Shown: positions 10,623 to 29,110 of the stretch, one piece after another
How the letters are laid out: the number at the start of each line of letters is the position of its first letter
Position numbering within the stretch: the stretch's first letter is position 1
NCBI GenBank assembly: GCA_041600715.1
Contig: JBFIJM010000004.1
Location: forward strand, 1 to 60,860
Length of the DNA stretch: 60,860 nucleotides
From: Candidatus Saccharimonadales bacterium
Lineage (GTDB): Bacteria > Patescibacteriota > Saccharimonadia > Saccharimonadales > 2-12-FULL-41-12
Reading direction: 5' to 3'
The notes under the pieces: model-generated
Databases searched by the model: none
Told to the model about the DNA's origin: nothing
The model's input: only the letters and a program-made list of their open reading frames with translations
Position numbers and translations under genes: made by a program

Positions 10623-11453
10623 TTAAAGGGTTACCCAAGATTGATCAACATGTTTACTAGGTGCATGGATGCAACTCATATCATATCCTCGGATAGGAAC
10701 GAGCTTACTTGAATTACGATAATCATAGTCTCTTAAGCCCTCATTACTCCGGTCATAATGTCGAAGATTCATAGTTCGTTGCCATGGGGGAATACGATTA
10801 TTATAGCGAAAATTTTTGTTCCATACTTTAGTTTCTTGGAGACGCCAAACATCTAAGGTTCTGTAGTCGTCCACAGTCATATCGATTGGTGTCTTCATGA
10901 TGGGGCCACCACAACCTTGTTGACCCACTTCACTTGGCCCTACTAACTGTGATCGTCTAAAAACGTTTACGTCAGGCTCAAGGTCACCACATCCTCTTGT
11001 TTCTGAAATCTTAAATTCAGCGTCGTCGTCTTCTCTTATGTCACCATATCGTCGACGATCATCCGCTTCAGTTTCCTGGAAAGTTGCACCTCTACTCCTA
11101 ATTCGTTGAGTAAAATATTTATCATGCCGTTTAACGAATTCCATGTTGGCCTTTGATATAACCTCGACCCAGTTACTACCACAAGCATACTCAAATTGAC
11201 GTAGATCAACGACGTCGGCCCATGCATTCATAAGCATTGGAACGTGCTTCTGAAAAACAGAAAGAGCTTTTTTACCGTCGGCACCTACATGGAGTATATA
11301 TTGTTCTTTAATTACGAATCGAATATTACTTTTGCTTAAGAAGACATCTTTAAGATATGGAGCAACTGTTCCAGCGACCTTTGTCGCGACATTCATCTCA
11401 TCCTTGACGCTGATGAGAGATCTTGGTACGTATATGTAACTTCTTTCTGTCAT
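10623..11453 (-). CDS. Hypothetical protein
   Basis: 276-aa ORF with an ATG start and TAATATAGTA upstream. Confidence 0.6.
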   Translation of the reverse strand: MTERSYIYVPRSLISVKDEMNVATKVAGTVAPYLKDVFLSKSNIRFVIKEQYILHVGADGKKALSVFQKHVPMLMNAWADVVDLRQFEYACGSNWVEVISKANMEFVKRHDKYFTQRIRSRGATFQETEADDRRRYGDIREDDDAEFKISETRGCGDLEPDVNVFRRSQLVGPSEVGQQGCGGPIMKTPIDMTVDDYRTLDVWRLQETKVWNKNFRYNNRIPPWQRTMNLRHYDRSNEGLRDYDYRNSSKLVPIRGYDMSCIHAPSKHVDQSWVTL

Positions 11454-11528
11454 TACTATATTAAAACTATAATAATAATAAACATATTAAGACATGTTAA
11501 GTTAGAAAATGTGTTTCCAAAAGACACC

Positions 11529-11771
11529 CTACGTAGGCTTACCAAATAAAGCTCGGTTAACCGCAGTGTCTACACAAAAAGCTTTATGAGCGATGATACT
11601 TACCAAGATGAGCACGAGGAAAATAAGGAAGGTATTCATATCCGAGAAATATCCAATGGCAATACTAAGGGCGACCGTCGCTAGCACATCCACAATGGCG
11701 ACATTCATAAATCTATATGAGTGGACACCTTCCCTCGGCTTACCGAAAATATCTTTATACTCGCATAACAT
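11529..11771 (-). CDS. Small two-TM membrane protein
   Basis: 80-aa ORF with two hydrophobic segments (VAIVDVLATVALSIAIGYF and FLIFLVLILVSIIA). Confidence 0.5.
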   Translation of the reverse strand: MLCEYKDIFGKPREGVHSYRFMNVAIVDVLATVALSIAIGYFSDMNTFLIFLVLILVSIIAHKAFCVDTAVNRALFGKPT

Positions 11772-11797
11772 TGTATATGTATTTTTTATACTATATA

Positions 11798-12526
11798 ATG
11801 ATTTGGATATTCATTATTACACTTATACTTGTTATTTATGTATGTCGAAAAGATATGTTTGTTAAAATACCGTCGCCGCGAAATTGGGTGACATGTTTAC
11901 CGGCCGACGCGGATGCAAGTGAGGAATCAGAATCGGAATCGGAATCGGAATCGGAATCGGGAAGCACGATGGATCTATTTTCATCAATCCCATCACCAAT
12001 TCCATTAATACCATCTTTGAACGATGTATTTGCAGATAAGGTGTCAAAATTATGTGGATGGAACATTTCATTTATCTGTGAGGTCAACAATAATAAATTA
12101 TTTCTTGGGAATTGGGTGGGTAGTGCAAATAAAAATATTCTTCGTGAACTTGGGATAAAAAAAATACTATGCCTAAATAAATACAAGAAGCCCGAATATT
12201 TACTCAACACGTATGAAGAATTAGGAATTGAACATAAACATATAGATATTAATGATCATGCTGAAGAAAATATTGCACAATACTTTGACGAGTGTTATGA
12301 TTTTATTGATAAACCTCTTCCCGCGGGCGCAGGTATATTTATTCATTGCACAGCCGGCATCTCTAGATCATCAACCATAACTATCATGTATTTGGCCAGA
12401 AAAAATAACTGGTCTATTGATGAAGCATATCAATTTGTCAGCGCGCAAAGAAATTGTATTCAGCCTAACGATGGATTTATGCAACAACTACAGGCCGATG
12501 CAAATGCTCGTGTAATAGCTGCGTAG
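11798..12526 (+). CDS. Dual-specificity protein phosphatase with N-terminal membrane anchor
   Basis: Active-site loop HCTAGISRS (HCxxGxxR, nt 12344..12370) in a DSP-like context (IFIHCTAGISRSSTITIMYL). ATG 11798 was chosen because TATACTATATA lies directly upstream; ATG 11777 is an alternative. The (ES)6 repeat is encoded at 11924..11959. Confidence 0.8.
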   Translation: MIWIFIITLILVIYVCRKDMFVKIPSPRNWVTCLPADADASEESESESESESESGSTMDLFSSIPSPIPLIPSLNDVFADKVSKLCGWNISFICEVNNNKLFLGNWVGSANKNILRELGIKKILCLNKYKKPEYLLNTYEELGIEHKHIDINDHAEENIAQYFDECYDFIDKPLPAGAGIFIHCTAGISRSSTITIMYLARKNNWSIDEAYQFVSAQRNCIQPNDGFMQQLQADANARVIAA

Positions 12527-12539
12527 CCGAAAGCAGAGT

Positions 12540-13646
12540 CTAAAGGGAGCATCTAGCATCAGTATCAATAATCTCAATGGCACAGTTTCCCTTGAATATA
12601 TTACTCATCCGGTGCTGAGTATCCCCAACACTTGGGCCATGATGGATACTACCCATGGGAATTAATGGCTTAAATTCTGGCTTGTTTTGTCGGGCATCAT
12701 CGAAAAACGCACAGTCGTTAGCGACAGTTCTCTTTATCTTTTGTTTTCTTTTTTTTCCTTTCCTTTCAGGAACTGGCTTGGTTGCCGTCCCACTACTACT
12801 AAGTCTCAACGCATTAGCTTCAACTTCGCCAATATGGTCGCTACCAGCCCCGATGCCAGCCAATCCACCTTCTCCACCTACGCCCTCAAGCGCCTTGAGT
12901 CGGGCGGCCGTTGTTTTTTGTTTTATCTCCGTAGCCTCTCCTCCCCATTCAGGAGTCGGTTGATATGTAAGTCTGTCTAGTGGTTCATATGGCGATGGTC
13001 CATATTTTCGCGGAAGAACATCCTGCATCCCAGGGAAAATATCTTTTCTAATAGCATTAATAACTCTGTCAATTCGGCCAATATCTAACCGACCATTTCT
13101 ACATTTGGCCGACTTAGACAATGAAATTAAAGCTTCGACATGTTTGGTGATCTCGAAAATATAATAATCTTTGACCCCTCCAGACTCTTCGGCGTCTTGA
13201 TCATTTTCATATTTGACATCGGCAAACCTAGTTGTTTTATTGATAGGGTTATAAAGATCTGTACTTGTTCCGACTGTGCTGGCCGATAGGTCGTTATCTC
13301 TAAGGTACTTCTGGAGGTCACGTTTAATATTTACCAGGTCATCGGAATATTTTTTACAGTCCCTCTCTTTAATACTTTGTTCAATATTTTCCAGGTTATC
13401 CCTTAAACCCATTAGGTAATGCAAAAATACTTCATCGCTGACTGTTGTTGGGCCATCAATTGTATCAACATCAACACCAAGTCCTTGTTCACCTTCTCTG
13501 TCGGATGATCTATAAATTCTGCCTACTCTTATATCGTTTTTTGTCTGCACGTAAGATAAAAGAATCCACGCAACAATCACAATAATACACAAAGCAACAA
13601 TGTACACGTAATTAGCATATACTTCATCTGTATTACTTTTCGCCAT
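12540..13646 (-). CDS. Hypothetical type-II membrane protein
   Basis: The track ORF opens on TTG at 13691; the first ATG is 13646, preceded by CTATATAAGC. TM segment: VYIVALCIIVIVAWILLSYV. Confidence 0.6.
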   Translation of the reverse strand: MAKSNTDEVYANYVYIVALCIIVIVAWILLSYVQTKNDIRVGRIYRSSDREGEQGLGVDVDTIDGPTTVSDEVFLHYLMGLRDNLENIEQSIKERDCKKYSDDLVNIKRDLQKYLRDNDLSASTVGTSTDLYNPINKTTRFADVKYENDQDAEESGGVKDYYIFEITKHVEALISLSKSAKCRNGRLDIGRIDRVINAIRKDIFPGMQDVLPRKYGPSPYEPLDRLTYQPTPEWGGEATEIKQKTTAARLKALEGVGGEGGLAGIGAGSDHIGEVEANALRLSSSGTATKPVPERKGKKRKQKIKRTVANDCAFFDDARQNKPEFKPLIPMGSIHHGPSVGDTQHRMSNIFKGNCAIEIIDTDARCSL

Positions 13647-13702
13647 GCTTATATAGTCATCTGTATATTCTATTAAATTTGAAAACGTCAAATTAATATA
13701 CG

Positions 13703-16675
13703 ATGAATCGATATCTTAAAGAAAACTCAGATGAACTTGGTCGGATAGTATGGTTTAAAAAAACTCCCGGTATCGATTATTCTGTAAGTGGCGGGTCTGC
13801 CGAGTCTGCCGAGTCTGCCGAGTCTGCCGAGTCTGCCGGGTCTGCCGGGTCTGCCGAGGCAAATATTAAACGTTTGATAAAATTCAAAGGCACCAATGAT
13901 CACTTATACGACCGATTCATATCAATTATAAATAATAAAAGTAGGAACATTGAATTCCCCAAGGGTACGTCTCATCGCGATTTCAGAAATAAATTTCTTG
14001 AAATTGTAGAATCAACGAAAAACGACGATGAATTTTTCAAAGTGTTTGGAAAATATTTTCGGGATATATCTGCCGAATCAAAATTCACCGAATTCGCTCG
14101 TGGTGAGAATCGAGCCAAAAACTTAAAGGGTAAATTTCCATTTGACGGTCGGTTCAATAGTAAATCAAGATATTTAGACTTCGGTACATTTAGAGGAGAA
14201 ATCGCTAAGGCAATTGCTAGTGAATATGGTATCGCGCCATCTAACATATATGGGGTCGACATAAAAAAACAAAAAGACCTGAAAGGTATTAAATTCAGCC
14301 TTATTAAGAAGGATGGAAAAATACCCCATAAAGATAATTACTTCGATCTTATAACTTGTCTTATGGTTTTACATCATGTCGATAAAGATTCATTGATATT
14401 TACTCTAAGCGAAATATTCAGGGTATTAAAACCAGGTGGTATACTTATCTTACGTGAACATGATTTAACAGGGATCGACTCACGCGAGTTTAGTATAATA
14501 TTAGATTTACTTCATCGATTCTATGACCAGTTGTGGGAACCAACAAGTTCATGGGATCAATGTGGTGATGATCATTCAACGAATTATATGTCAATAACAT
14601 GGCTTACTTCTAGAATGAAGGAAGTCGGTTTTGTCCAAGGAGGTGTATTCAATAATAAAAATTATAAGTACAATCCATTTAACACATATGATGTTGTTTT
14701 TACGAAATCTCTCGAAGGCGGATATACCCGTTCACCTACTAAATGTCAGTCGTCAAGTAGTAATTTGCCCGGTTGTAAGCCGTCAAGTGGGGTTTTATCA
14801 AAAAGCACATCGTCGCAGATCACAAAGCTAGATTTAACTACAGAATGCATTATCGATAGTATTCTTGATATTAAACCCAACAATGATCCTCCGTATGAAA
14901 TCTCCGACATAAAAAAAACAATTCCCTACGAATGCCATAGAGGATTTTTTAATATGAACGTTCACTACGGTCAAAGAAAATTACTACTGACCGAAATAGA
15001 ATTTTATTCTAAATGTCTCATCCGGCAGCAAGGAAATATTGTCATATACGCTGGGTCGGCATCGGGGGAACATACCCCTATTATCCTAGATATGTATAAA
15101 CATCTGAAATTTATTTTCATAGATCCCAACTACCACTCATTTGATAAATACACCTACCAATACATCTACCAAAATACACCTGTTATATTAAAGGATAACC
15201 TAAAACAGTTCAAACGTGGTGAAAAATATAAACATCTAACCAAAGTCGATTTCCTATATGGCGGAAGGGCAAATGTCATAGATACAGCTGTTCAATACCA
15301 AACAACATCAGTCGAAGATCCATTTATTGTTAAGTCACGTGAAGATTTCGAAGGGGGTTTATATAAAAATTTAATCTCGGACATTATGCAGAGCAAGCAT
15401 AGGGTTTTTATCATTCAAGATTATATGACTATTAAATTGACTGAGATGTTCAAGGAGTCGCTTGATATTTATAATGAGGTTAAGAAACTGAAGGGTGGAG
15501 TTGGAGTTGGAGTTGGAGTTGGAGTTGGAGTTGGAGTTGGAGTTGGAGCTAGCGGCGGCGGTCGCAAGGTGCCCAAAAAATCCGCGGCCGCGAAGATCGC
15601 TATTAAGAAGATTAATGACGACGACTCGTCGCCACTTGTATCGACACCATCGCCGGCATCATCGCCAAATGTAGAGCTATATTTTCTAACGGATATCCGG
15701 ACAAATTTATTCCAAGACTCGCCGCATGATATTGAAGTATTGTGGAACTACGCCCTTCAGGTTATATTCCTAAAAATTCTTCAACCAACCTACAGTATGT
15801 TAAAATTTCGCCCTCCATATTTCGGAGAACTAAAAAGTGAACTTACTCGAGGATTTACTCTTCTTATGGAAGACGACGAGGAGTATAAAAAAATTATACC
15901 ATCAGGTAAACATATGATTTCAAATGTGATTAAGGGTGATTTGAAATTTGTTCATGAAAATTATGGTCTTGACTTGTTCGGTAATTACTTAAATGATAAT
16001 TTTACTTATTTAGACAATGATTTTATCTACATACAGCCTTGGTCACCGAAGGGTTCAACAGAGACACGTTTGTTCATTTCTAGAAAAACTTTGTCCAAGC
16101 CATATATTATTTATGATCAATATGCTTGGGAAGATAAATTCTTCTATCTAAGATATTATAAAAATTACGCATACCATGGTGTGTTTTATGAAAAGATTAA
16201 AGATATGAATACAATTTATGATGGATGTTACGACTGCACCCGGGAGCTGATGATTTTAGGAGGGTACATGTTGTCTTTGAAAAACATAGATAAATTTACA
16301 ACTGTTCCAAAAAAATATGATCTCCAAGAGATAGCTAAAATATTTGATTCTCCGAAAAACATCAAAACTTTATTGAAGTTATCTCAAACCATCGAAAGAT
16401 ACACTTGGAGTAAACTTGGGGTTGATCAAAAATCAAGTTGGCATGGAATATTAAATAAACCACCCTCACAAATTATCTTGAATACTATTAAAAGACCTGG
16501 TGATAGTATTCAAGGATATTTATTGAATAAAAAAACCCGCAAGGCGGATTTGATTTACTCATATACTAGTCCTATATGTAAGGCAGTCGATCGGCTGCGC
16601 GCAAAAAACGCCAGAGACATATGCATGCAAAACTTCAAAGTAGTTAATGACCCATGGAGACTTGAACCAATTTAA
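13703..16675 (+). CDS. Fusion of a class I SAM-dependent methyltransferase with a poxvirus VP39-like cap-specific 2'-O-methyltransferase
   Basis: The N-terminal part carries FDLITCLMVLHHV...IFRVLKPGGILILREHD (Methyltransf_11-like). The C-terminal part carries HYGQRKLLLTEIEFY...IVIYAGSASGEHTPIIL...IFIDPN, matching the VP39 pattern GQLKLLLGELFFL...VVYIGSAPGTH. In-frame repeats: (SAE/SAG)7 at 13795..13857 and (GV)8 at 15497..15544. Confidence 0.7.
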   Translation: MNRYLKENSDELGRIVWFKKTPGIDYSVSGGSAESAESAESAESAGSAGSAEANIKRLIKFKGTNDHLYDRFISIINNKSRNIEFPKGTSHRDFRNKFLEIVESTKNDDEFFKVFGKYFRDISAESKFTEFARGENRAKNLKGKFPFDGRFNSKSRYLDFGTFRGEIAKAIASEYGIAPSNIYGVDIKKQKDLKGIKFSLIKKDGKIPHKDNYFDLITCLMVLHHVDKDSLIFTLSEIFRVLKPGGILILREHDLTGIDSREFSIILDLLHRFYDQLWEPTSSWDQCGDDHSTNYMSITWLTSRMKEVGFVQGGVFNNKNYKYNPFNTYDVVFTKSLEGGYTRSPTKCQSSSSNLPGCKPSSGVLSKSTSSQITKLDLTTECIIDSILDIKPNNDPPYEISDIKKTIPYECHRGFFNMNVHYGQRKLLLTEIEFYSKCLIRQQGNIVIYAGSASGEHTPIILDMYKHLKFIFIDPNYHSFDKYTYQYIYQNTPVILKDNLKQFKRGEKYKHLTKVDFLYGGRANVIDTAVQYQTTSVEDPFIVKSREDFEGGLYKNLISDIMQSKHRVFIIQDYMTIKLTEMFKESLDIYNEVKKLKGGVGVGVGVGVGVGVGVGASGGGRKVPKKSAAAKIAIKKINDDDSSPLVSTPSPASSPNVELYFLTDIRTNLFQDSPHDIEVLWNYALQVIFLKILQPTYSMLKFRPPYFGELKSELTRGFTLLMEDDEEYKKIIPSGKHMISNVIKGDLKFVHENYGLDLFGNYLNDNFTYLDNDFIYIQPWSPKGSTETRLFISRKTLSKPYIIYDQYAWEDKFFYLRYYKNYAYHGVFYEKIKDMNTIYDGCYDCTRELMILGGYMLSLKNIDKFTTVPKKYDLQEIAKIFDSPKNIKTLLKLSQTIERYTWSKLGVDQKSSWHGILNKPPSQIILNTIKRPGDSIQGYLLNKKTRKADLIYSYTSPICKAVDRLRAKNARDICMQNFKVVNDPWRLEPI

Positions 16676-16690
16676 TTTCATCGTCTCATA

Positions 16691-17035
16691 TTAGACAAGA
16701 TCTGGTCTTATTTTTTCCATACGTTCCTTGATGACAAAAATTAAATCGTTTCTTTTCTTTTTTATCGGAGAGCAAGGTTTTAATTTATGCGCACCCTTAT
16801 GAAATTCTTTCATCTCAGTGAACACACCCGCGAGTTGATTAGGTTGTGATTTAATCGGTTTGTTTGTTGATTTGATAGATTCATTGGTACTCGACGTATT
16901 ATCCGTTAGTAGTGGAATGGGTGAGTCAGCACATTTCTCATCATCTTGGGATTCGACAGAGGAGGGCCAAAAGTAATACACTCCGGAAATTGTTGCGGTT
17001 GCAAGAGCAACTGCACTAGATATAACAAGAGCCAT
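16691..17035 (-). CDS. Small membrane-anchored protein
   Basis: 114-aa ORF with an N-terminal TM segment (ALVISSAVALATATISGVYYF). Confidence 0.55.
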   Translation of the reverse strand: MALVISSAVALATATISGVYYFWPSSVESQDDEKCADSPIPLLTDNTSSTNESIKSTNKPIKSQPNQLAGVFTEMKEFHKGAHKLKPCSPIKKKRNDLIFVIKERMEKIRPDLV

Positions 17036-17097
17036 GATAATATATGAACTAAATTAAATTTGATTTAACAAATACAATATAGCTTAGGTTTTGGAAA

Positions 17098-19848
17098 ATG
17101 CTATCCAATGTACTAAGTCAGGTCGGCGGACTCGTCGAAAAAGGTGAATCGCTGGAGATAGAACTTAGATTGCTTATAGATTCCCGAGGGAATATTCCTA
17201 AATTTACTCCTCCGGTTTTTATAGATACTAAAGAATTCGTTGGAAGTGTAATAAAAAAATACTGTACGTCTTCGACATGTAGTATACTTGAACATATAGA
17301 CTTTTTTCAGTCCGCAAACATAGGAAGCGAACCATATCAACGTGTTCGCAATATTAAAACACTTGTGTTTAAAAATGGAGAGCAACAAAAATCCCTGAAA
17401 CATCTTCATAAAAAACGCACACTATTAAATCCAATTTATGTTACTGCCCCTGGTAAAATATCATATAAAGTAGGTGCATCTGCCGAATCTAAATCTGAAA
17501 TTGAAGTGACAACCCCTGATTTGGTTCGCGGAAAACTTCGCCTAAGCATTGTAGATCCTAAATTAAAAGGTTGGCGCATCGATATCACTCTAACAAAGAC
17601 TCTTGAAAAAGCCAGCACTTTCACCGAGGTTAAAAAAATAAGGGATAATCTACTGGTCAAGGGAATAAATATTGATAATTTTATGGAAAAAGCCCCATGG
17701 GAATATGCCGATTTAGTAGAGTTCGAATTAGAATGGATCGGTAAAAAATCAGTTACCCCCATTGATTTCTTAGTAGTGGATACATTATTATCTGAGAGAG
17801 AAAGCTATTTATCCTCAGAACTTGGTGAAAATAAAAACTACCTATTTGAAATATCTCAAATCATCGACCCTAAAATATCCTACTATTTTAAGAATACATC
17901 TAATGTATTGGATAAGTTAAGTCGAGGTAGTATTAAAAGATTATGGAACAACCCCATTGAACTATCAAAACAATCATATTATGATGAGGTTTATGAACCA
18001 ACGCTTGCAGGTGATCAATTCTACCTGACTGATAAGGCTGATGGATTTAGAGCGTTTTTACGCCTTGGCGAACGTGCGGATTTAATAGTATCAAATCCAG
18101 CAGCCACTGATGTATCTGAACATGAGAAGAAACTAACAGACGCTTTGGTCAAAGCCTCGAAAGGGAAACTAGATGAGGGATTAAGCAAATCATCAAGCAA
18201 ATCATCAAGCAAATCATCAGGTAAAATACATATTGCGGATGTTGAGGTCACCCCCCACGGTGTATTTATATTCGATGCCATCAAATATAATGGTGAAAAT
18301 ATTTCACACCTGTCATTTAAAGATAGACTTAAGTACTTCGACAAGATAGCGAAACAAATAGGAGATAAAAAATTACTTTCTTCAAAAGATTTTATTCTTG
18401 TTGCTGGAAAAGAGAAGGATATAAAAAAATCGATCCTTTCAATTCAAGGAACATTATCAAAAAAACCTTATGAAACAGATGGTATGATATTTTCATCAGC
18501 CGAAGGTTCCTATAGTCGAACAAAACATTACAAACACAAACCAGTAGAGAAGATGACCATCGACTTTTTGGTAAAAGAATGTCCCAAGGGTCTTCTGGGC
18601 ATAGCGCCGTATGTAAAAAAACCAAATTATATCTTGTTCTTCCTATTTGTAGGTGTTAATCGGGGGATGTTCCGCATGCTGAACATGGATAGGGTTAAAC
18701 GCTATAGTGAACTTTTTCCAGAATCCCATGGCGACTACTTCCCTATACAATTCTCACCATCGAGTAAACCGTTAGCCTATTTATATTGGCATCCGACATC
18801 GGCTACCTCGACTGAAGATGTGAAGAATCATGTATGTGAAATGCATTATGATGTGAAAAAGGAAGAGTGGTCCTTACACAGGATCAGGACAGATAAAGAT
18901 ACAGACGTTGCGAAAGGAATCGCGTTCGGTAATGATTTTCGCATTGCTGAGCTGATATGGAGGAACTACCAAAATCCGCTAACTGTTCAAGATCTATACA
19001 TTAAGCCACCTGGTGGTTACTTTAAACAACATGATAACCCCAGATACAAGACTACTAGAGCGTTTAATAGTTTTGTTAAAGGTCATCTACTTGAGCAATT
19101 CTCGGGGACTGATTGGACAGTTGATATGGGCGGCGGCAAGGGGCAGGATCTATTTAGATACGCCAAATACGAGTTTAAAAATGTTGTATTCTTAGAGATT
19201 GACGACGATGCAATATCTGAGTTGATCAACCGCAAGTATTCCTTAGGTAAGACGAATGCCAACATGGGCGTACATGTACTTAAGATGGACCTAAATAATA
19301 AAGCAGATGCTAATATACAAAAGATAAAAGACGTCAGATTTGGAATGTCACATAAAGGAGCCCAACTTATCGTTTGTAATTTTGCATTTCATTATTTCAT
19401 TAACGGAAGTGCCGCCGTTAAGAATATTGTATCTTTAGTGGCGGGATTGTTGGCACCAGGTGGTCGATTTATATTTACAGCGTTCGACGGTCGGGCTGTA
19501 TTTAATCTCCTAGCGCGTAACTCAGGCGAATGGACTGTAAAGGAGGATGGCGTTGTTAAATATTCTATCAAGCGTGCTTATAAATCTAACAGCCTAACAG
19601 GATCGGGACAAAAAATTGAGGTTATTCACCCCTTCAGCGATGGTAAATATTACGAGGAAACCCTTGTGAATAATAGCTACATTGAAAGCGCCTTTGGTAA
19701 AGTAAAGATGCGACGTGAATTATACGATTCTTTTGGAACTCTGTTTGGGCGATTTCAGAAAGAAAACCCATCTATGTCAGCGGGATTAAGTTCTGCAGAC
19801 AAAGATTATATTGGTTTATATTATTATTGTTCTTACTTCAAGGCTTAA
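17098..19848 (+). CDS. Tri-functional mRNA capping enzyme (RNA triphosphatase, guanylyltransferase, cap N7-methyltransferase)
   Basis: The N-terminal LEIELRL is a triphosphate-tunnel-type beta strand. The KxDG nucleotidyl-transferase motif LTDKADGFRAFL is at nt 18034..18045. The C-terminal SAM motif I is VDMGGGKGQDL, near nt 19130. The 916-aa length fits ASFV and giant-virus single-chain capping enzymes. Confidence 0.85.
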   Translation: MLSNVLSQVGGLVEKGESLEIELRLLIDSRGNIPKFTPPVFIDTKEFVGSVIKKYCTSSTCSILEHIDFFQSANIGSEPYQRVRNIKTLVFKNGEQQKSLKHLHKKRTLLNPIYVTAPGKISYKVGASAESKSEIEVTTPDLVRGKLRLSIVDPKLKGWRIDITLTKTLEKASTFTEVKKIRDNLLVKGINIDNFMEKAPWEYADLVEFELEWIGKKSVTPIDFLVVDTLLSERESYLSSELGENKNYLFEISQIIDPKISYYFKNTSNVLDKLSRGSIKRLWNNPIELSKQSYYDEVYEPTLAGDQFYLTDKADGFRAFLRLGERADLIVSNPAATDVSEHEKKLTDALVKASKGKLDEGLSKSSSKSSSKSSGKIHIADVEVTPHGVFIFDAIKYNGENISHLSFKDRLKYFDKIAKQIGDKKLLSSKDFILVAGKEKDIKKSILSIQGTLSKKPYETDGMIFSSAEGSYSRTKHYKHKPVEKMTIDFLVKECPKGLLGIAPYVKKPNYILFFLFVGVNRGMFRMLNMDRVKRYSELFPESHGDYFPIQFSPSSKPLAYLYWHPTSATSTEDVKNHVCEMHYDVKKEEWSLHRIRTDKDTDVAKGIAFGNDFRIAELIWRNYQNPLTVQDLYIKPPGGYFKQHDNPRYKTTRAFNSFVKGHLLEQFSGTDWTVDMGGGKGQDLFRYAKYEFKNVVFLEIDDDAISELINRKYSLGKTNANMGVHVLKMDLNNKADANIQKIKDVRFGMSHKGAQLIVCNFAFHYFINGSAAVKNIVSLVAGLLAPGGRFIFTAFDGRAVFNLLARNSGEWTVKEDGVVKYSIKRAYKSNSLTGSGQKIEVIHPFSDGKYYEETLVNNSYIESAFGKVKMRRELYDSFGTLFGRFQKENPSMSAGLSSADKDYIGLYYYCSYFKA

Positions 19849-19887
19849 GTAAAAAAAAAGTGAATTTTTTTGTGCTAGTAAAGTTCA

Positions 19888-21336
19888 ATGGCAAGTTCCG
19901 CCTTTGATCTGACTTCGGTCCAAGCTGGAGCCTCTCGGGCTCCAGCTTTCTCTGATGATGAGCTTATTGCATCCGCTATGTTAGCCATCATTGATGAACG
20001 CGAGAATGAAGAAGCGTCTTTGAAGCTTGTGCGTCAACTCCAAAAGGAAGAAAAGCGTAAATTGATCCAAATAAAGAAAGATTTAAAGCTTGCTAAGAAA
20101 TTAGAGCGCAAATCCGCACATCCTTCTCAGCGCAAATCCGCACATCCTTCTCAGCACAAATCCGCACATGAGTTAAGTGCGGAAGAAATTGAGTTTCTCA
20201 AGAGCAAAGAAGAGTCTTGGAAGCTTGTGCGTCAACTCCAAAAGGTCGAAGAGAGTCGACAGATCCAAATACTGGAAGATTTAAAGCTTGCTCAAAAATC
20301 CCAGCTCGCCTTCGAATATCATCCTCAGCTCGCCCCCGAATATCCTCCTCAGCTCACCCCTGCACGGGTTGAACGAAAAGCTTGTCAGTCGCCTCAAAAG
20401 TACCCGAACATTCATTTACCTGTCCCCGAGAAGTTTGCTGTGGGTCGAAGTACTCGGATGCCGGAAAATTTTGGACACAGTAGCGCATGTGCAATTAATG
20501 CTATTCTGGCTGCCGGTAATGATGACATTACTCTTCAGAATATTTGGGATTGCCTCGTTGCAGCGAAGACGAAATTTCCAGGCACGATGAAAGAAGCCAA
20601 GGGAGGTAAGCAGATCGGAGAACCTATTTTCATGATTTGTTACCATCTCCTATTCCCCACGGGAAGAGGATCGTTTTCGATCTTGGCGTATCGCGGCATT
20701 AACCAAGAGACCGGCAAGCACTCGTCCACCACCTTGGTTACTGTCGGTTCTTCTGACGGTCCTCACTTTGACTTCATGCAAACGCACCTGTCTAGCCAAT
20801 GGCGTAACCAGCCGGTTGCTCACGAAAGAGCTACTGCATCGCTCGGACATTGGGTTTGTGTTAATGGGGATGATAGTCGATATATTGAGGCGCTTCAAAA
20901 CAACTTTGATGAGAAGTACCAAGATGGCGATGTCGGTTATTGCGAGGCATGGCATTATTCCGCGATTGGAACTGCAACAGATTATGAAAATGGTGACTCA
21001 GTTGCACGAAATTCTCCAAACTTCCTAGCAGCTCAAGCCCGAGCCCGAGCGCCAGCCCGAGCGCCAGCCCGAGCGCCAGCCCAAGCGCCATCCCGAGCGC
21101 CAGCCCAAGCGCCATCCCGAGCGCCATCCCGAGCGCCAGCCCGAGCGCCAGCCCAAGCGCCAGCCCGAGCGCCATCCCGAGCGCCATCCCGAGCGCCATC
21201 CCGAGCGCCATCCCGAGCGCCATCCCGAGCGCCATCCCGAGCGCCATCCCGAGCGCCATCCCGAGCGCCATCCCGAGCGCCAGTCCGAGCGCCATCCCGA
21301 GCGCCAGCGTTTGCCTATGATCCACACTTTCTTTAG
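19888..21336 (+). CDS. Hypothetical protein: duplicated LVRQLQ helix motif, Cys/His domain, (SRAPA)n tail
   Basis: 482-aa ORF. It has two copies of (S)(L/W)KLVRQLQK(E/V)EE...DLKLA, a central region with GHSSACAINAIL and LGHWVCV, and a C-terminal run of about 17 units of a 15-bp repeat at 21036..21308. Confidence 0.6.
   Translation: MASSAFDLTSVQAGASRAPAFSDDELIASAMLAIIDERENEEASLKLVRQLQKEEKRKLIQIKKDLKLAKKLERKSAHPSQRKSAHPSQHKSAHELSAEEIEFLKSKEESWKLVRQLQKVEESRQIQILEDLKLAQKSQLAFEYHPQLAPEYPPQLTPARVERKACQSPQKYPNIHLPVPEKFAVGRSTRMPENFGHSSACAINAILAAGNDDITLQNIWDCLVAAKTKFPGTMKEAKGGKQIGEPIFMICYHLLFPTGRGSFSILAYRGINQETGKHSSTTLVTVGSSDGPHFDFMQTHLSSQWRNQPVAHERATASLGHWVCVNGDDSRYIEALQNNFDEKYQDGDVGYCEAWHYSAIGTATDYENGDSVARNSPNFLAAQARARAPARAPARAPAQAPSRAPAQAPSRAPSRAPARAPAQAPARAPSRAPSRAPSRAPSRAPSRAPSRAPSRAPSRAPSRAPVRAPSRAPAFAYDPHFL
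21036..21308. repeat. 15-bp in-frame tandem repeat (CCCGAGCGCCA[G/T]C-type), ~17 units
   Basis: Read directly from the sequence. It encodes (A/S)RAP(A/S) in 19888..21336. Confidence 0.9.
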
Positions 21337-25857: not shown

Positions 25858-28122
25858 TTATAATTTTTCCTTCTTTAAGATCCACTCAGTTAGTTGGGGT
25901 ATTAATGGATTGTCGCTTTCAATAGGCATGTAACCTTTTACTTGATCATCGTATTCATAAATGGATATTTTACGGGACCCCTTCTCTTCAATAGCATAGT
26001 AGTATTTTTTCCCCAACTCATTGATAATAATTTCCTTTACTTTCACTTGCTCCTTCTCAAATTCTTGACATGGGTCGTCAAGAATTACATCCTTTGATAA
26101 GATAGGGTAGTATAATTTTTTGTTTGTTGGCGCACATATTTTGCATCGAATTTGAGAGCGAATTTTCTTGGTGAATTTTTTTTCATGCACACTACAATCG
26201 ATCGATGCCTCAGCTAAGGCGGTCATGAAAGACCCAATCAACACTCCACCCTTCATGGCACGAACATATAATTCAATATCTGTCGTCATCTCTTTTTTGT
26301 CTTTTTCTTCGACCGTCGTTGGGTAGTCTGATAAATAAGTGTATGATTGAATTGTTCTATCTTTTTTAGGTAGATCTTCGTGACTTTTATATCTGGCACC
26401 TCGGGCATCGATCTGATCATGAATCATTTTATTCCACGGGCCTTCTAGTTTATGATTATGTCTGCTATTTTTGAGCTCTATACCTTGCGATCCGGCCTTA
26501 CTAAGTAGCACGAGGGATATGATGTCGCCATTTATATTATCTTTGCTTCCGTAGACATCTTGTATCTGAGTTCTTTCTTCGTATGAGACTTCTCCAGATA
26601 TAACCGCATACTTACGTTTAGCTTTGGTTTTAGGTGTTGCCTTTAACTTACTACCTCCTTCGATGTCGTCTGCGAAATCAAGTAATTCGCTATAATCACC
26701 TACGACATCGGAAGGGTCCTCAATGGCACCGCCTTTGCTTTTGCTTTTGCTTTTGCTTTTGCTTTTGCTTTTGCTTTTACCCTTTACCCCGAAAACATAA
26801 TCTATACTACTCTTAGTGTCTTCAACACTTGTTGGTTGCCATCGCTCCCATCCATTAGCTTCAAGCATCATAGAGAAAATACCTAATCCTTCCGCGTATA
26901 CAAATTCAGAAGACACATAACCAGGGAGTCCTTTATATTTTTCTATATTTTCCAGGACTTTTTTAAACTTCGGGCTATATTTAGATAAATTCTCACCCTG
27001 AAGATCAGTAGGCGTAATTTTATCAAGTTCCTTTGAACGCATTTTCTTCCCTATTCGTGGTCCACGCGCTTTCTCGGGAATAAAGAAATTGCTTATTTGT
27101 CTGGACTTAATCCGATAACTAGAATGCGATATGCCCTTTGATGAAAATCTAGTAGCTTGCCCAGCAAAAGCTGGGATTTCTTTTTGTTCAGCATCTCTAG
27201 CTTCTGAATACGCGATGTATTGTGGTATACTCATGGGAATCTTGACAACAATATCAGGCGGAGTGCTTGGGAAGAACTCCGAAGCTTCATCGAAATACAA
27301 AGACCCATAATAACTGTACAATCCTAATATACGATTCTGAAAGCGGCTTTTGTTTTTTATACTACCCGTTGTGTAGTCAATAAAATAGTTGTCAAAGTCT
27401 TCTTTTAATTCAGGAAATAAAGTGATAGTTTGCCCCTGAGATACTTGAATAGGACCTCGTAACATATTAAAACAAGGGACAAGTTCGAACGGTGAATTAA
27501 CCATAGGCGTTCCGGTCAAAAAGATTAATTTGATGTTTTTTGCATTCATAATCTTATCATACAAATTGATAGCGTTCATCGAGCCATTTGTGATAGCGTT
27601 GAAAAAATTATGTGCCTCATCGATGATTAACACTACCCCTTCAAGAAAATCTTGGTCGGTTAATTCGTCTAGGTCTTTTAGTTGTTTCTCGAAAGAGATT
27701 TCTTCCTTAGATTTTTTTATCTTACTCATTTGACTATACATATTCGAAGCGTTAAGGCTAATAAATTTATAATTACTATCAATATGTGCATTAACATCAA
27801 TGCTGGACATATCTGGATTTTTGTTCAACAGTCGCTTTCTAATATTATCCTTCATGTTGTCAACTAACCCCTTCGCCAATAGTACGACAATCTGACGGGT
27901 ATTATCTTGCTCCTTATAAAAATTAGCCAGCTCATCTGCCGTCATAGATTTACCATAACCCATACTATATGCACAAAGAATACCCCTAGACATGGGATTA
28001 TTGATGATAAATTCTCTGGTGATGAACTGATGATACTGTAAAAATTCTCCTTTACCATATTTTAAGCTTAGTAAATAGTTTTTATTAAGGATTGAGAAAT
28101 TTGTGTTATCGAATTTCTCCAT
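25858..28122 (-). CDS. D6/D11-like SNF2-type SF2 helicase (VETF small-subunit-like)
   Basis: Motif I SMGYGKSMTA, motif II LIIDEAHNF, motif III FLTGTPMVNSPFEL, motif V SKAGSQGIELKN, motif VI QIDARGARYKSH. The (KS)7 repeat is encoded at 26734..26775, between the two RecA-like lobes. Confidence 0.8.
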   Translation of the reverse strand: MEKFDNTNFSILNKNYLLSLKYGKGEFLQYHQFITREFIINNPMSRGILCAYSMGYGKSMTADELANFYKEQDNTRQIVVLLAKGLVDNMKDNIRKRLLNKNPDMSSIDVNAHIDSNYKFISLNASNMYSQMSKIKKSKEEISFEKQLKDLDELTDQDFLEGVVLIIDEAHNFFNAITNGSMNAINLYDKIMNAKNIKLIFLTGTPMVNSPFELVPCFNMLRGPIQVSQGQTITLFPELKEDFDNYFIDYTTGSIKNKSRFQNRILGLYSYYGSLYFDEASEFFPSTPPDIVVKIPMSIPQYIAYSEARDAEQKEIPAFAGQATRFSSKGISHSSYRIKSRQISNFFIPEKARGPRIGKKMRSKELDKITPTDLQGENLSKYSPKFKKVLENIEKYKGLPGYVSSEFVYAEGLGIFSMMLEANGWERWQPTSVEDTKSSIDYVFGVKGKSKSKSKSKSKSKSKGGAIEDPSDVVGDYSELLDFADDIEGGSKLKATPKTKAKRKYAVISGEVSYEERTQIQDVYGSKDNINGDIISLVLLSKAGSQGIELKNSRHNHKLEGPWNKMIHDQIDARGARYKSHEDLPKKDRTIQSYTYLSDYPTTVEEKDKKEMTTDIELYVRAMKGGVLIGSFMTALAEASIDCSVHEKKFTKKIRSQIRCKICAPTNKKLYYPILSKDVILDDPCQEFEKEQVKVKEIIINELGKKYYYAIEEKGSRKISIYEYDDQVKGYMPIESDNPLIPQLTEWILKKEKL

Positions 28123-28136
28123 GGTCTATATTAATC

Positions 28137-28145
28137 AAAAAAAAA
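28137..28145 (-). terminator. Minus-strand T9 run downstream of the stop of 28163..28669
   Basis: A9 on the plus strand, 18 nt beyond the minus-strand stop. Confidence 0.4.
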
Positions 28146-28162
28146 CAACATCCTCTCGGTAA

Positions 28163-28669
28163 TCAACTTTCGGTAAGCAACTTAGACAAATGATTAATGT
28201 TCAACTTGACAATCTTTTTTTCTGCAATGGCTAACAAAATTTCATTTTCTTTTTCGGTAATCTTGCAATTCAGATGAGACATTTTATTTTCAAGCTCGTC
28301 AATAGCCGACATCAAATAATTTTGATCAACCCCCCCGGCTCCAGATACTTCAATGGTAGTAGTCAATTTTGGTTGATCCACCTGGAAGTCTTGTATGTCA
28401 ATAGTCCTTTCAAGGGGAAGAATATTTTTTACCCAGATACCTTCAAGATTAACAACGTATCCAGGTGGTGGTTTGGTTGGTGTACCTGAACTTTGAGTAA
28501 ATAGTCGGCGCGCACTAGATGGGTGAGTTCTAGATCGACGTATGCTGGATCGGGAGGATTGGGAGAGGCGATCATATGGCATTGGTCGGGTCATTCGGAT
28601 TTTGTCAGCCTTATGCCGTGCCCTTTCTTCATATGGACATGGTGGTGATCGAATCTGCGTAGCACTCAT
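28163..28669 (-). CDS. Hypothetical protein
   Basis: 168-aa ORF with an ATG start and a minus-strand T9 downstream (28137..28145). Confidence 0.55.
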   Translation of the reverse strand: MSATQIRSPPCPYEERARHKADKIRMTRPMPYDRLSQSSRSSIRRSRTHPSSARRLFTQSSGTPTKPPPGYVVNLEGIWVKNILPLERTIDIQDFQVDQPKLTTTIEVSGAGGVDQNYLMSAIDELENKMSHLNCKITEKENEILLAIAEKKIVKLNINHLSKLLTES

Positions 28670-28684
28670 GATACTTATATCCTC

Positions 28685-29032
28685 ATGTTTTATTCAATTT
28701 TTTTAAGTTTCACATATGTTATTCAAGAAGCGTTATGTCTGTTAAAAAACAAGAAGCGATTGATATTCACTGCAAAAATTGAACTACTTATCTTAATATT
28801 TAGCTTAATATTTAGCTTGATAATAATGCTCTATCCAATAAGTTTCATTGTGGGTTTATTATTAGGTGTATATATGACATCTGAGTTATACCGGAGAGAA
28901 GAAAGGATTCGAAGCACTGCCATTCTTAAAGAAGTCAAAAAAATAAGAGCATGTATTGACGAGGAAACCAATGAGTCTCGGTACGACTACTATCCGACTA
29001 CCGTTGGCCGTGCCCGTAGTAAAACGAGTTGA
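28685..29032 (+). CDS. Small multi-TM membrane protein
   Basis: 115-aa ORF with several hydrophobic segments and an internal duplication LIFSLIFSLI. Confidence 0.5.
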   Translation: MFYSIFLSFTYVIQEALCLLKNKKRLIFTAKIELLILIFSLIFSLIIMLYPISFIVGLLLGVYMTSELYRREERIRSTAILKEVKKIRACIDEETNESRYDYYPTTVGRARSKTS

Positions 29033-29110
29033 TTACTCCTCCCTCCCCCAACAGTGACAACGGCCGCCAACGAACTGGACAACTGAACGTGCAATCTAAC
29101 GTTGGGCTAA

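What the first reader, a model, noticed from the sequence alone, without database searches (positions are those of the whole stretch)
13703..19848. Double methyltransferase (class I SAM MTase plus VP39-like 2'-O-MTase) next to the tri-functional capping enzyme
The 990-aa ORF 13703..16675 joins a generic class I SAM methyltransferase domain (LKPGGILILREHD region, about nt 14150..14700) to a domain with the poxvirus VP39 signature (HYGQRKLLLTEIEFY, VIYAGSASGEHTP, IFIDPN). One small gene downstream lies the TPase-GTase-N7-MTase capping enzyme (17098..19848). Together these would give three methyltransferase domains for mRNA 5' ends: N7, 2'-O, and one of unknown specificity. The extra N-terminal domain may do a further cap-proximal methylation (a second 2'-O or a base methylation). 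That role is inference.
Basis: partly seen in the sequence, partly recalled or inferred. Interest (0 to 1): 0.65.

Follow-up and report, generated by a model that had tools for sequence, protein, structure and literature searches.

The report
Two-methyltransferase cap enzyme, marine giant virus
An uncultured marine giant virus encodes one 990-residue protein that joins a poxvirus-VP39-type mRNA cap 2'-O-methyltransferase to a second, virus-specific methyltransferase of unknown target, next to its capping enzyme, which points to an extra, still unidentified methyl mark on viral mRNA.

Summary
ORF 13703..16675 is a real, uninterrupted 990-aa fusion, and an independent assembly spans the domain junction with no differences. 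Residues ~399-880 are a VP39-family domain: Pfam 63.6 bits, profile vs PDB E 4e-32, and Foldseek finds only VP39. The K-D-K-E tetrad (K426, D664, K701, E787) and the m7G-stacking residues (Y409, Y706, E810) are intact. Residues ~150-335 are a class I (Methyltransf_11/23) methyltransferase. It belongs to a giant-virus-specific subfamily whose SAM-binding and polar positions are near-invariant, although motif I is non-canonical (GxFxG). The trifunctional capping enzyme lies one small gene downstream.

The same methyltransferase subfamily is fused to cap-pocket-bearing VP39-like domains in at least 44 metagenomic proteins, in both domain orders. In another virus the VP39-like domain is fused to the capping enzyme plus a Tgs-type cap N2-methyltransferase. 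Homology and fold searches cannot name the N-terminal domain's substrate.

VP39-like enzymes in giant viruses are already known, and the fusion already exists unremarked in databases. This is a new variant of a known kind and a good biochemical lead.

The parts
13703..16675 (+). ORF990: methyltransferase + VP39-like fusion protein (990 aa)
13703..14149 (+). N-terminal hairpin and helical extension (aa 1-149) that precedes the Rossmann core. It is conserved in fusion and stand-alone relatives and includes the RGxNRxK motif (R133, G134, R137, K139).
13793..13858 (+). In-frame (SAE)n low-complexity repeat, aa 31-52, predicted disordered
14150..14707 (+). Class I SAM methyltransferase core (aa 150-335), giant-virus subfamily of the Methyltransf_11/23 type. 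Conserved positions: D159, G161, G165, D186, D215, H224, H225, R240, E252, H253, D268, H271.
14171..14197 (+). Motif I, YLDFGTFRG (aa 157-165): non-canonical GxFxG loop
14720..14887 (+). Ser-rich interdomain linker (aa 340-395)
14897..16342 (+). VP39-like cap 2'-O-methyltransferase domain (aa ~399-880; the C-terminal boundary is approximate)
14978..14980 (+). K426, equivalent to VP39 K41 (tetrad)
15692..15694 (+). D664, equivalent to VP39 D138 (tetrad)
15803..15805 (+). K701, equivalent to VP39 K175 (tetrad)
16061..16063 (+). E787, equivalent to VP39 E207 (tetrad)
14927..14929 (+). Y409, equivalent to VP39 Y22 (m7G stacking)
15818..15820 (+). Y706, equivalent to VP39 F180 (m7G stacking)
16130..16132 (+). 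E810, equivalent to VP39 E233 (m7G hydrogen bond)
15137..15382 (+). Insertion 1 relative to VP39 (aa ~479-560), a structured mostly helical subdomain shared with the VP39-only relatives P0001-P0006
15506..15661 (+). Disordered low-complexity loop (aa 602-653) with a (GV)n repeat, unique to this protein
15830..16027 (+). Insertion 2 relative to VP39 (aa ~710-775), helical, between K701 and E787
16343..16672 (+). C-terminal extension (aa ~881-990) of helices plus a small beta domain. It follows the conserved DGCYDC motif at aa 840-845, which lies inside the VP39-like part.
16691..17035 (-). Intervening 114-aa ORF with a hydrophobic N-terminus and no family match. Probably unrelated to capping.
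17098..19848 (+). Trifunctional capping enzyme (916 aa)
17098..17817 (+). TTM-type RNA triphosphatase region (aa 1-240), assigned only from the motifs LEIELR (aa 20) and VEFELEW (aa 208)
   Evidence: no database hit for this part
18010..18525 (+). Guanylyltransferase domain (aa 305-476), with KxDG at K313
   Evidence: 26.2 bits, just below the Pfam cut-off of 29.6
19033..19827 (+). Cap guanine-N7 methyltransferase domain (aa 646-910)
   Evidence: PDB 7d8u, E 5.7e-39

Best explanation
ORF990 is a bifunctional mRNA-modifying enzyme of an uncultured marine giant virus. Shown: it is one continuous protein, and its C-terminal two thirds are a VP39-family Rossmann-fold domain. That domain has an intact K-D-K-E catalytic tetrad, an intact SAM-binding motif (GSASGEH plus D474) and the aromatic pair plus glutamate that sandwich m7G in VP39. 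Inferred with high confidence (about 0.85): this domain binds the m7G cap made by the neighbouring TPase-GTase-N7-MTase and methylates a ribose 2'-OH of a cap-proximal nucleotide. Position 1 is most likely, but positions 2 or 3 cannot be excluded. Shown: the N-terminal third is a class I SAM methyltransferase of a giant-virus-specific subfamily that also exists as a stand-alone ~300-aa gene. Inferred (about 0.7): it is catalytically active, because D159, D186, D215, H224-H225, R240, E252-H253 and H271 are near-invariant across 69 diverged members. Inferred (about 0.45-0.5): it acts on the same capped RNA. The VP39-like domain would serve as the cap anchor, and the N-terminal domain would add a second, chemically different methyl group, on a base or another non-2'-O position near the 5' end. 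Its conserved His/Glu/Asp cluster suggests general-base or metal-assisted chemistry. The two genes together would convert pppRNA to m7GpppNm carrying one further mark.
For: VP39 domain: Pfam 63.6 bits; family profile vs PDB E 4e-32 over VP39 residues 8-250. The AF2 model has pLDDT 86.4 and pTM 0.87. Foldseek vs PDB returns 21 VP39 chains (TM 0.71-0.75 normalised to target) and nothing else below E 0.04. The tetrad is invariant in the first 13-sequence alignment and present in 230 of 240 family members.

Cap pocket: Y409/Y706/E810 align to VP39 Y22/F180/E233.

Link to capping: the capping enzyme lies 423 nt downstream. In L011 one 1457-aa ORF joins capping enzyme, VP39-like domain and a Tgs-type cap N2-methyltransferase.

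N-terminal domain: Pfam hits above cut-off; AF2 pLDDT 77.8 with a Rossmann core above 90; class I fold matches; conservation table.

Coupling of the two domains: 40 methyltransferase-VP39 and 4 VP39-methyltransferase fusions among 334 retrieved proteins. Three of the four reverse-order fusions were checked and carry the same subfamily signature YLDxGC/LHH/REHD/DxxH; P0324 did not reach the subfamily score threshold. 38 of 41 methyltransferase-VP39 and 4 of 4 reverse-order fusions keep an aromatic/aromatic/acidic m7G pocket. The only lineage linked to poly(A) polymerase has lost it.

The locus is ancestral: helicases and flanking genes are shared with L001, L003 and L004.

Giant-virus translation factors read cap-proximal methylation (PMC12621921), so extra marks have a plausible use.
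Against: No search ties the N-terminal domain to any RNA methyltransferase. The best PDB relatives are LahSB, BH2331, YcgJ and phosphoethanolamine N-methyltransferases. Foldseek gives Trm112-partner Hvo_0019, TleD, RebM, Coq5 and METTL6 at similar scores. Nothing in NCBIfam reaches its cut-off.

Motif I has Phe in place of the usually conserved middle Gly.

Stand-alone homologues are not next to VP39-like or capping genes in L003, L004 or L005.

Adjacency of the fusion to the capping enzyme is seen only in this window.

VP39 D182 and Y204 equivalents are G708 and G784.

There are no transcript or protein data: the source is a DNA metagenome.
Confidence: 0.55

Rival explanations
1. The N-terminal methyltransferase acts on a non-RNA substrate, such as a protein (for example a virion or transcription-complex component) or a small molecule. 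It is fused to the cap 2'-O-methyltransferase only for co-expression or co-packaging.
For: The closest solved relatives are peptide, small-molecule and lipid-headgroup methyltransferases. Stand-alone members sit in unrelated neighbourhoods. One relative (P0175) joins VP39-like, methyltransferase and a TTL-type protein-modifying ATP-grasp domain, and the window has its own large TTL protein.
Against: Recurrent fusion in both domain orders, specifically to VP39-like domains that keep the cap pocket, is hard to explain without a shared substrate. The other confirmed fusion partners of the VP39-like domain are mRNA-end enzymes: capping enzyme, Tgs-like methyltransferase and poly(A) polymerase.
Confidence: 0.2
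2. The N-terminal domain is a catalytically inert methyltransferase-fold module that stabilises, regulates or adds RNA binding to the VP39-like domain. Known analogues, recalled from memory, are vaccinia D12 with D1 and the second Rossmann domain of human CMTR2.
For: Motif I lacks the middle glycine (GxFxG). Human hMTr2 needs both of its Rossmann-fold domains (section heading in PMC3113572).
Against: Every other SAM-contacting position (D159, G161, G165, D186, D215) and a set of polar residues typical of active sites (H224, H225, E252, H253, H271) are kept in 60-68 of 69 members. 18 of 69 members have the canonical Gly at position 163. The domain also exists alone as a ~300-aa protein, which a pure accessory module would not be expected to do.
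Confidence: 0.12
3. The protein works mainly at the 3' end. The VP39-like domain would be a poly(A) polymerase partner and poly(A) 2'-O-methyltransferase, as shown for VP39 and Megavirus Mg18, and the N-terminal domain would modify the tail or 3' terminus.
For: Relatives of the same long-insert VP39-like family lie directly downstream of a Poly_A_pol_cat gene (L007) or are fused to it (P0270 and P0275). Mg18 methylates poly(A) internally (PMC4402537).
Against: The poly(A)-polymerase-linked lineage has lost the m7G pocket (CLW or YLL), while the query keeps Y-Y-E. No poly(A) polymerase was detected in the 60.9-kb window. The neighbour here is the capping enzyme. This function would not exclude cap methylation, since VP39 does both.
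Confidence: 0.1
4. The 990-aa ORF is an artefact: two adjacent genes joined by an assembly or sequencing error.
For: The source is a metagenome assembly, and the ORF contains tandem repeats where assemblers break.
Against: An independent contig spans the junction with no differences at even depth. The repeats have periods of 9 and 6 nt and lie away from the junction. At least 40 independent contigs carry the same architecture. There is no usable internal start codon upstream of the conserved Y409.
Confidence: 0.02

Closest known systems
Poxvirus VP39 (vaccinia and monkeypox cap-specific nucleoside-2'-O-methyltransferase and poly(A) polymerase processivity subunit; Pfam PF01358)
   Same: Same fold (only VP39 chains match, TM 0.71-0.75), same K-D-K-E tetrad, same SAM motif, and the same m7G-stacking Tyr/aromatic pair and Glu.
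   Different: About 15% identity. There are two structured insertions (aa ~479-560 and ~710-775), a disordered repeat loop, a ~110-aa C-terminal extension and an extra N-terminal methyltransferase. VP39 D182 and Y204 are not conserved. Any poly(A) polymerase partnership is untested, and no poly(A) polymerase was found in the window.
Megavirus chilensis Mg18 (VP39 homologue; PMC4402537)
   Same: A giant-virus VP39-like enzyme with K-D-K-E. Mg18 was shown to 2'-O-methylate capped RNA.
   Different: Mg18 appears to be single-domain (inferred from Y59 being the equivalent of VP39 Y22). It lacks the F180/D182 loop, does not depend on N7 methylation, and also methylates poly(A) internally. The query keeps the F180-equivalent aromatic (Y706).
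Medusavirus Cap3MTase and trypanosome TbMTr2/TbMTr3 (VP39-family enzymes for cap positions 2-4; PMC13393146, PMC3113572)
   Same: VP39 family, K-D-K-E and a Y-Y-E cap motif. They show that family membership does not fix which nucleotide is methylated.
   Different: No second methyltransferase domain is described for them.
Mimivirus capping cluster: R382 (TPase-GTase-N7 MTase) next to R383 (predicted CMTR-like 2'-O-MTase), plus L320 (Tgs-like N2 MTase) (PMC4402537, PMC12621921)
   Same: The same gene logic: a trifunctional capping enzyme sits beside a cap 2'-O-methyltransferase gene, and a further cap methyltransferase is encoded by the virus.
   Different: Here the 2'-O-methyltransferase is VP39-type rather than CMTR/FtsJ-type, which is a non-orthologous replacement. 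The extra methyltransferase is a Methyltransf_11-type domain fused to it, not a Tgs-type enzyme.
Uncharacterised metagenomic methyltransferase-VP39 fusions (P0007-P0012, P0101 and others, 640-770 aa; L030). The Hyperionvirus 688-aa protein annotated as a cap-specific 2'-O-methyltransferase (A0A3G5A637) may also belong here.
   Same: The same two domains in the same order, and the same methyltransferase subfamily signature.
   Different: Their VP39 part is compact. The query's VP39 part is the long-insert type otherwise seen only in VP39-only proteins: 400 bits to P0254, with no fusion protein among its 25 best matches. None has been studied experimentally as far as the searchable literature shows. 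That the Hyperionvirus protein is a fusion is inferred from its length only.
Multi-methyltransferase capping proteins (bluetongue virus VP4, reovirus lambda2, human CMTR2; PMC4615557, PMC3113572)
   Same: Two Rossmann-fold methyltransferase domains in one polypeptide devoted to the 5' cap.
   Different: In those proteins the two domains are N7 plus 2'-O, or 2'-O plus an inactive copy. Here N7 sits in a separate protein, and the second domain is unrelated to N7 methyltransferases (hhalign probability 19%).

Membership tests
VP39 / PF01358 cap-specific nucleoside-2'-O-methyltransferase family | Significant match to the family profile | tested here: met
   Pfam 63.6 bits against a cut-off of 25.4; family profile vs VP39 chains E 4e-32 in three collinear segments
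VP39 / PF01358 cap-specific nucleoside-2'-O-methyltransferase family | K-D-K-E catalytic tetrad (VP39 K41, D138, K175, E207) | tested here: met
   K426, D664, K701, E787; invariant in 13 sequences and present in 230 of 240 family members
VP39 / PF01358 cap-specific nucleoside-2'-O-methyltransferase family | VP39-type three-dimensional fold | tested here: met
   AF2 pLDDT 86.4; Foldseek vs PDB gives 21 of 21 significant hits as VP39, with the next hit at E 0.04
VP39 / PF01358 cap-specific nucleoside-2'-O-methyltransferase family | m7G pocket: stacking Y22 and F180, hydrogen-bonding E233 and D182 | tested here: inconclusive
   Y409, Y706 and E810 are conserved. The D182 equivalent is G708 (with E709 adjacent) and the Y204 equivalent is G784. 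This rests on alignment only, with no ligand modelling.
VP39 / PF01358 cap-specific nucleoside-2'-O-methyltransferase family | Cap-dependent 2'-O-methyl transfer, and which nucleotide is targeted | not testable with these tools
   Needs an enzyme assay. Family members target positions 1, 2 and 3 or poly(A) (PMC13393146, PMC4402537).
VP39 / PF01358 cap-specific nucleoside-2'-O-methyltransferase family | Heterodimer with, and processivity factor for, the viral poly(A) polymerase | not testable with these tools
   No poly(A) polymerase was found in the window. Relatives linked to poly(A) polymerase have lost the cap pocket, unlike the query.
Class I SAM-dependent methyltransferases (Methyltransf_11/23 type) | Profile match and Rossmann-like fold | tested here: met
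   Five Pfam models above cut-off; AF2 core pLDDT above 90; 1308 class I matches in PDB at E <= 0.001
Class I SAM-dependent methyltransferases (Methyltransf_11/23 type) | Motif I glycine-rich loop, (D/E)xGxGxG | tested here: inconclusive
   DFGTFRG: the first and third Gly are present, the middle Gly is Phe. In the subfamily this position is F33, G18, Y6 of 69.
Class I SAM-dependent methyltransferases (Methyltransf_11/23 type) | Motif II acidic residue binding the SAM ribose, and the acidic residue after strand 4 | tested here: met
   D186 in 66 of 69 and D215 in 60 of 69 members
Class I SAM-dependent methyltransferases (Methyltransf_11/23 type) | SAM binding and methyl transfer | not testable with these tools
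   Needs biochemistry
Known cap-modifying methyltransferases other than 2'-O (N7 PF03291, Tgs PF09445, PCIF1 PF12237), as a home for the N-terminal domain | Profile match of the N-terminal domain to one of these families | tested here: not met
   No such Pfam hit. hhalign against the window's own N7 domain gives probability 19%. Ecm1 ranks 54th of the 60 PDB profile hits listed, at E 1.4e-10.
Trifunctional NCLDV capping enzyme (TTM TPase - GTase - N7 MTase) | N7-methyltransferase domain | tested here: met
   PF03291, 43.1 bits against a cut-off of 26.6; PDB 7d8u E 5.7e-39
Trifunctional NCLDV capping enzyme (TTM TPase - GTase - N7 MTase) | Guanylyltransferase with a KxDG lysine nucleophile and an OB domain | tested here: inconclusive
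   PF01331 scores 26.2 bits, just below its cut-off of 29.6. PF03919 scores 23.8 against 26.5. The KADG motif is at K313. The homologous part of L011 matches at E 2e-113 and scores 41 bits for PF01331.
Trifunctional NCLDV capping enzyme (TTM TPase - GTase - N7 MTase) | Metal-dependent TTM triphosphatase with two Glu-rich strands | tested here: inconclusive
   Only the motifs LEIELR (aa 20) and VEFELEW (aa 208) are seen. There is no profile or PDB hit for aa 1-240.

The most novel reading that the evidence does not exclude
The N-terminal domain would represent a new family of cap-proximal RNA methyltransferases. It would add a base or other non-2'-O methyl group, making a hypermethylated, cap-4-like 5' end on giant-virus mRNAs. 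It would be tethered to its substrate by the VP39-like cap-binding domain, and the extra mark would serve as a viral mRNA identity tag for viral translation factors or against host decapping and sensing. Because trypanosome cap 2'-O-methyltransferases are VP39 relatives thought to derive from viruses, the family could also point to the still unassigned base methyltransferases of cap 4.
Probability: 0.3. Interest if true: 0.8.

Novelty: new variant of a known kind. Interest (0 to 1): 0.55.

Why it matters
Methylation next to the cap decides whether an mRNA is translated, decapped or sensed as foreign. Mimivirus vIF4E was recently shown to read m7GpppAm specifically (PMC12621921). A Medusavirus VP39 relative was shown to make Cap3 (PMC13393146). 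A conserved second methyltransferase welded repeatedly, and in both orders, to cap-binding VP39-like domains is a concrete candidate for a further, unknown mRNA-end modification in giant viruses. The enzyme is small enough to express and assay directly. If it proves to be a new cap-modifying activity, it would also interest makers of synthetic mRNA, who already use giant-virus capping enzymes. The census made here also suggests that VP39's two poxvirus jobs are split in giant viruses, between cap-pocket-bearing forms and pocket-less forms linked to poly(A) polymerase.

Tried and rejected
1. Naming the N-terminal domain's substrate failed. Pfam, NCBIfam, PDB sequence and profile searches and Foldseek on a good AF2 model give only generic class I relatives at similar scores.
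2. A diverged duplicate of the N7 domain is rejected (hhalign probability 19%).
3. Weak RAD51 (E 0.008, aa 48-182) and CKS1 (E 0.5) hits are treated as chance. They fall on helical or low-complexity parts and were not reproduced by profiles or folds.
4. Gene-neighbourhood support for the stand-alone methyltransferases: no VP39-like, capping or poly(A) polymerase ORF within 8 kb in L003, L004 or L005.
5. Conserved adjacency of VP39-like genes to the capping enzyme is not found in the other loci examined; only the L011 fusion links them.
6. No poly(A) polymerase in the window with profiles from L007, P0270 and P0275 or with Pfam.
7. The PCIF1-like region in L028 is sub-threshold in Pfam (25.7 against 31.1 bits) and has no PDB sequence hit. 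It is kept only as a lead.
8. Transcript evidence: only DNA metagenome runs hold the sequence.
9. Identity of the virus: the protein itself is not in the protein collection, and none of the fusion clusters carries a virus name. Shared helicases with L001 and L003 and the best BFVD matches suggest a Mimiviridae-like lineage. The N7 domain is closest to PDB 7d8u, which I recall, from memory only, to be ASFV NP868R. Placement is unresolved.
10. A Hen1-like metal site was considered because of the HH and EH motifs after strands 4 and 5. This rests on memory only, and Hen1 did not appear among the listed hits. It is not claimed.

Full report
**Observation.** A 114-aa minus-strand ORF (16691..17035) lies between them. 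Pfam places five class I methyltransferase models on aa 150-310 of ORF990 (best E 1.6e-14). It places PF01358, the VP39 / poly(A) polymerase regulatory subunit family, on the C-terminal part (E 1.9e-17, 63.6 bits against a cut-off of 25.4). ORF916 carries guanylyltransferase, OB and cap N7-methyltransferase domains. It also has the two Glu-rich strands of a TTM triphosphatase and KADG at K313.

The sequence comes from a marine DNA metagenome. Contigs assembled independently from that run cover 13400-20000 without a single difference. One contig spans methyltransferase domain, linker and VP39 start, and breaks occur only at in-frame tandem repeats.

**The VP39-like part.** A single-sequence search already finds VP39 in two segments separated by about 180 residues. 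A 62-sequence family profile matches VP39 at E 4e-32 in three collinear pieces covering VP39 residues 8-250. An AlphaFold model built on that alignment is confident (pLDDT 86.4, pTM 0.87). Only aa 602-653, a (GV)n and Ser/Pro-rich loop, is disordered. Foldseek against PDB returns 21 vaccinia and monkeypox VP39 chains (TM 0.71-0.75 normalised to VP39), and the next hit is at E 0.04.

The catalytic tetrad is K426, D664, K701, E787. It is invariant in the first alignment and present in 230 of 240 family members collected. The residues that hold m7G in VP39 are partly kept. Y22, F180 and E233 correspond to Y409, Y706 and E810. D182 and Y204 correspond to G708 and G784.

Relative to VP39 there are two structured insertions (aa ~479-560 and ~710-775) and a C-terminal extension. 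The query shares these with a set of VP39-only metagenomic proteins of 535-670 aa. VP39-like proteins are already annotated in many giant-virus genomes, including Hyperionvirus, Tupanvirus, Pithovirus and Orpheovirus. Two have been characterised. Megavirus Mg18 is a cap 2'-O-methyltransferase that also methylates poly(A) (PMC4402537). The Medusavirus enzyme methylates the third nucleotide (PMC13393146). Family membership is therefore secure, but the target nucleotide is not determined by it.

**The N-terminal part.** Aa 1-345 are homologous over their whole length to the N-terminal halves of 712-735-aa fusion proteins. This includes a hairpin and a helical region upstream of the Rossmann core. 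They are also homologous to stand-alone proteins of about 300 aa, at E down to 1e-128 for the profile. The model is good in the core (pLDDT above 90; overall 77.8, pTM 0.80).

Nothing identifies the substrate. Foldseek, the PDB profile search and NCBIfam return a flat list of class I enzymes: LahSB, BH2331, YcgJ, phosphoethanolamine N-methyltransferases, RebM/AtmM, TleD, Coq5, METTL6 and a Trm112 partner. No NCBIfam model reaches its cut-off. The domain is not a copy of the neighbouring N7 domain.

Motif I reads DFGTFRG, so the middle glycine of GxGxG is phenylalanine. I aligned 69 members of the viral subfamily. That position is F in 33, G in 18 and Y in 6. In contrast, D159, G161, G165, D186, D215, H224, H225, R240, E252, H253 and H271 are each kept in 60-69 members. 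That pattern indicates a working enzyme with an unusual SAM loop rather than a decayed domain. The His/Glu/Asp cluster after strands 4 and 5 is specific to the viral subfamily.

**What links the two halves and the cap.** Among 334 proteins retrieved there are 40 methyltransferase-then-VP39 fusions, 4 with the reverse order and 2 poly(A)-polymerase-then-VP39 fusions. Three of the four reverse-order proteins carry the same subfamily signature (YLDxGC, LHH, REHD, DxxH), so the same two modules were joined more than once.

In IMG/VR locus L011 a single 1457-aa ORF contains the capping enzyme (E 2e-113 to the window's) and a VP39-like domain with tetrad and pocket intact. It ends in a Tgs-type cap guanine-N2 methyltransferase (PF09445 E 3e-13; human TGS1 E 7e-10).

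A census of the pocket residues separates two classes. Nearly all VP39-like proteins have aromatic/aromatic/acidic residues at the Y22/F180/E233 positions, including 38 of 41 methyltransferase-VP39 fusions and 4 of 4 reverse fusions. The only lineage tied to poly(A) polymerase has C-L-W or Y-L-L there while keeping K-D-K-E. That lineage comprises P0270 and P0275 (fused) and P0256 and P0257 (P0256 directly downstream of a Poly_A_pol_cat gene in L007). The query has Y-Y-E and sits beside a capping enzyme, so it belongs to the cap-binding class.

Cautions apply. Stand-alone methyltransferases are not next to VP39-like or capping genes. Adjacency to the capping enzyme is not seen in the other loci examined. 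A possible PCIF1-like partner in L028 is below threshold and unsupported.

**Peculiarity of this protein.** Its methyltransferase half is closest to the methyltransferase halves of fusion proteins (about 150 bits). Its VP39 half is closest to long-insert VP39-only proteins (about 400 bits), and no fusion protein appears among its 25 best matches. No other retrieved protein combines the two in this way. The gene lies in a neighbourhood conserved with the loci that carry the compact fusion or the stand-alone methyltransferase. Three large SNF2/ResIII helicases (587-1114 bits) and the two genes just upstream are shared. The locus is therefore old, not a recent insertion.

**Most likely mechanism.** The capping enzyme makes m7GpppN-RNA. 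The VP39-like domain of ORF990 docks on m7G through Y409, Y706 and E810 and methylates a cap-proximal 2'-OH with K-D-K-E. The tethered N-terminal domain then adds a second, chemically different methyl group to the same 5' end. The first two steps follow from established knowledge of the families plus the tests above. The last step is inference from the fusion pattern.

The main rivals are a non-RNA substrate, an inert regulatory domain, and a 3'-end role. An assembly artefact is practically excluded.

**Novelty and value.** VP39-like 2'-O-methyltransferases in giant viruses are known, and the fusion is present, unremarked, in dozens of database entries. I found no paper describing it. This is a new variant of a known kind. 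Its interest lies in a well-defined, conserved, assayable candidate for an additional mRNA-end methylation. That matters at a time when cap-proximal marks of giant viruses have been shown to be read by viral translation factors (PMC12621921) and when their cap enzymes are being adopted as tools.

Noticed in passing
L011:7508-11878 (IMGVR_UViG_3300024344_002854): A single 1457-aa ORF joins capping enzyme (GTase and N7 MTase by Pfam, homologous to the window's enzyme from residue 87), a VP39-like 2'-O-methyltransferase and a Tgs-type cap guanine-N2 methyltransferase. It would be a four- to five-activity cap factory in one polypeptide.
   Followed up: partly
L007:8616-11701; proteins P0256, P0257, P0270, P0275: One lineage of long-insert VP39-like proteins is linked to a Poly_A_pol_cat gene (P0256 adjacent in L007; P0270 and P0275 fused; P0257 is a close relative whose context was not looked at). 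It has lost the m7G-pocket residues (CLW or YLL) while keeping K-D-K-E. This suggests VP39's cap and poly(A) roles are split between paralogous forms in giant viruses.
   Followed up: partly
window 45133-49698 (+); protein P0175: A 1521-aa window protein carries several tubulin-tyrosine-ligase / ATP-grasp domains. A metagenomic relative of ORF990 (P0175, 2179 aa) joins VP39-like, the same methyltransferase subfamily and a TTL domain in one protein. The connection is unexplained.
   Followed up: no
L028:9005-12097: A 1031-aa ORF has a VP39-like domain followed by a sub-threshold PCIF1_WW match (25.7 bits against a cut-off of 31.1). PCIF1 is the cap m6Am writer. A PDB sequence search gave no support.
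   Followed up: partly
L010:5376-11611: Two VP39-like genes lie in tandem (1305 aa and 759 aa), each with a long unannotated N-terminal region.
   Followed up: no
window 11923-11960, 13795-13858, 15496-15548, 18183-18219, 20105-20360, 21044-21306: Many ORFs carry in-frame microsatellite-like coding repeats: (SE)n, (SAE)n, (GV)n, (KSSS)n and 22 copies of APSR. The APSR array raises local GC to 48% and creates long spurious antisense ORFs. Independent contigs break at three of these repeats (the SAE, GV and KSSS arrays), so their copy numbers are uncertain.
   Followed up: partly
window 23-991, 1255-2100, 2415-2699 (+): Three tandem paralogues share nearly identical N-termini (MS(T/S)P(V/I)AKSQIYMTELMKSKLI...). 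The first two are WD40 repeat proteins; the third is a short 94-aa copy.
   Followed up: no
window 55990-57417 (+): A single 475-aa ORF combines a uracil-DNA glycosylase superfamily domain (aa 59-219) with an RNase H domain (aa 290-454).
   Followed up: no
window 10623-13691 and 25858-38883, compared with L001, L003 and L004: The 1342-aa, 754-aa and 823-aa helicases and the two genes just upstream of ORF990 have homologues clustered around the methyltransferase(-VP39) gene in AT-rich metagenomic giant-virus contigs. This is a conserved neighbourhood that may help place the virus.
   Followed up: partly
window 11717-12526 (+): A dual-specificity phosphatase (DSPc, E 3e-30) with an N-terminal hydrophobic segment and an (SE)n repeat lies two genes upstream of ORF990.
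   Followed up: no
window 35327-36373 (-): A strong MYG1 exonuclease family member (PF03690, E 7e-66) lies between two helicase genes.
   Followed up: no
window ORF990 aa 840-845 and 914 (nt about 16220-16237 and 16442-16444): The conserved DGCYDC...KC..H pattern in VP39-only relatives looks like a small zinc site. In the query the third Cys is Ser (KSSWHG), so the site may be degenerate here.
   Followed up: no
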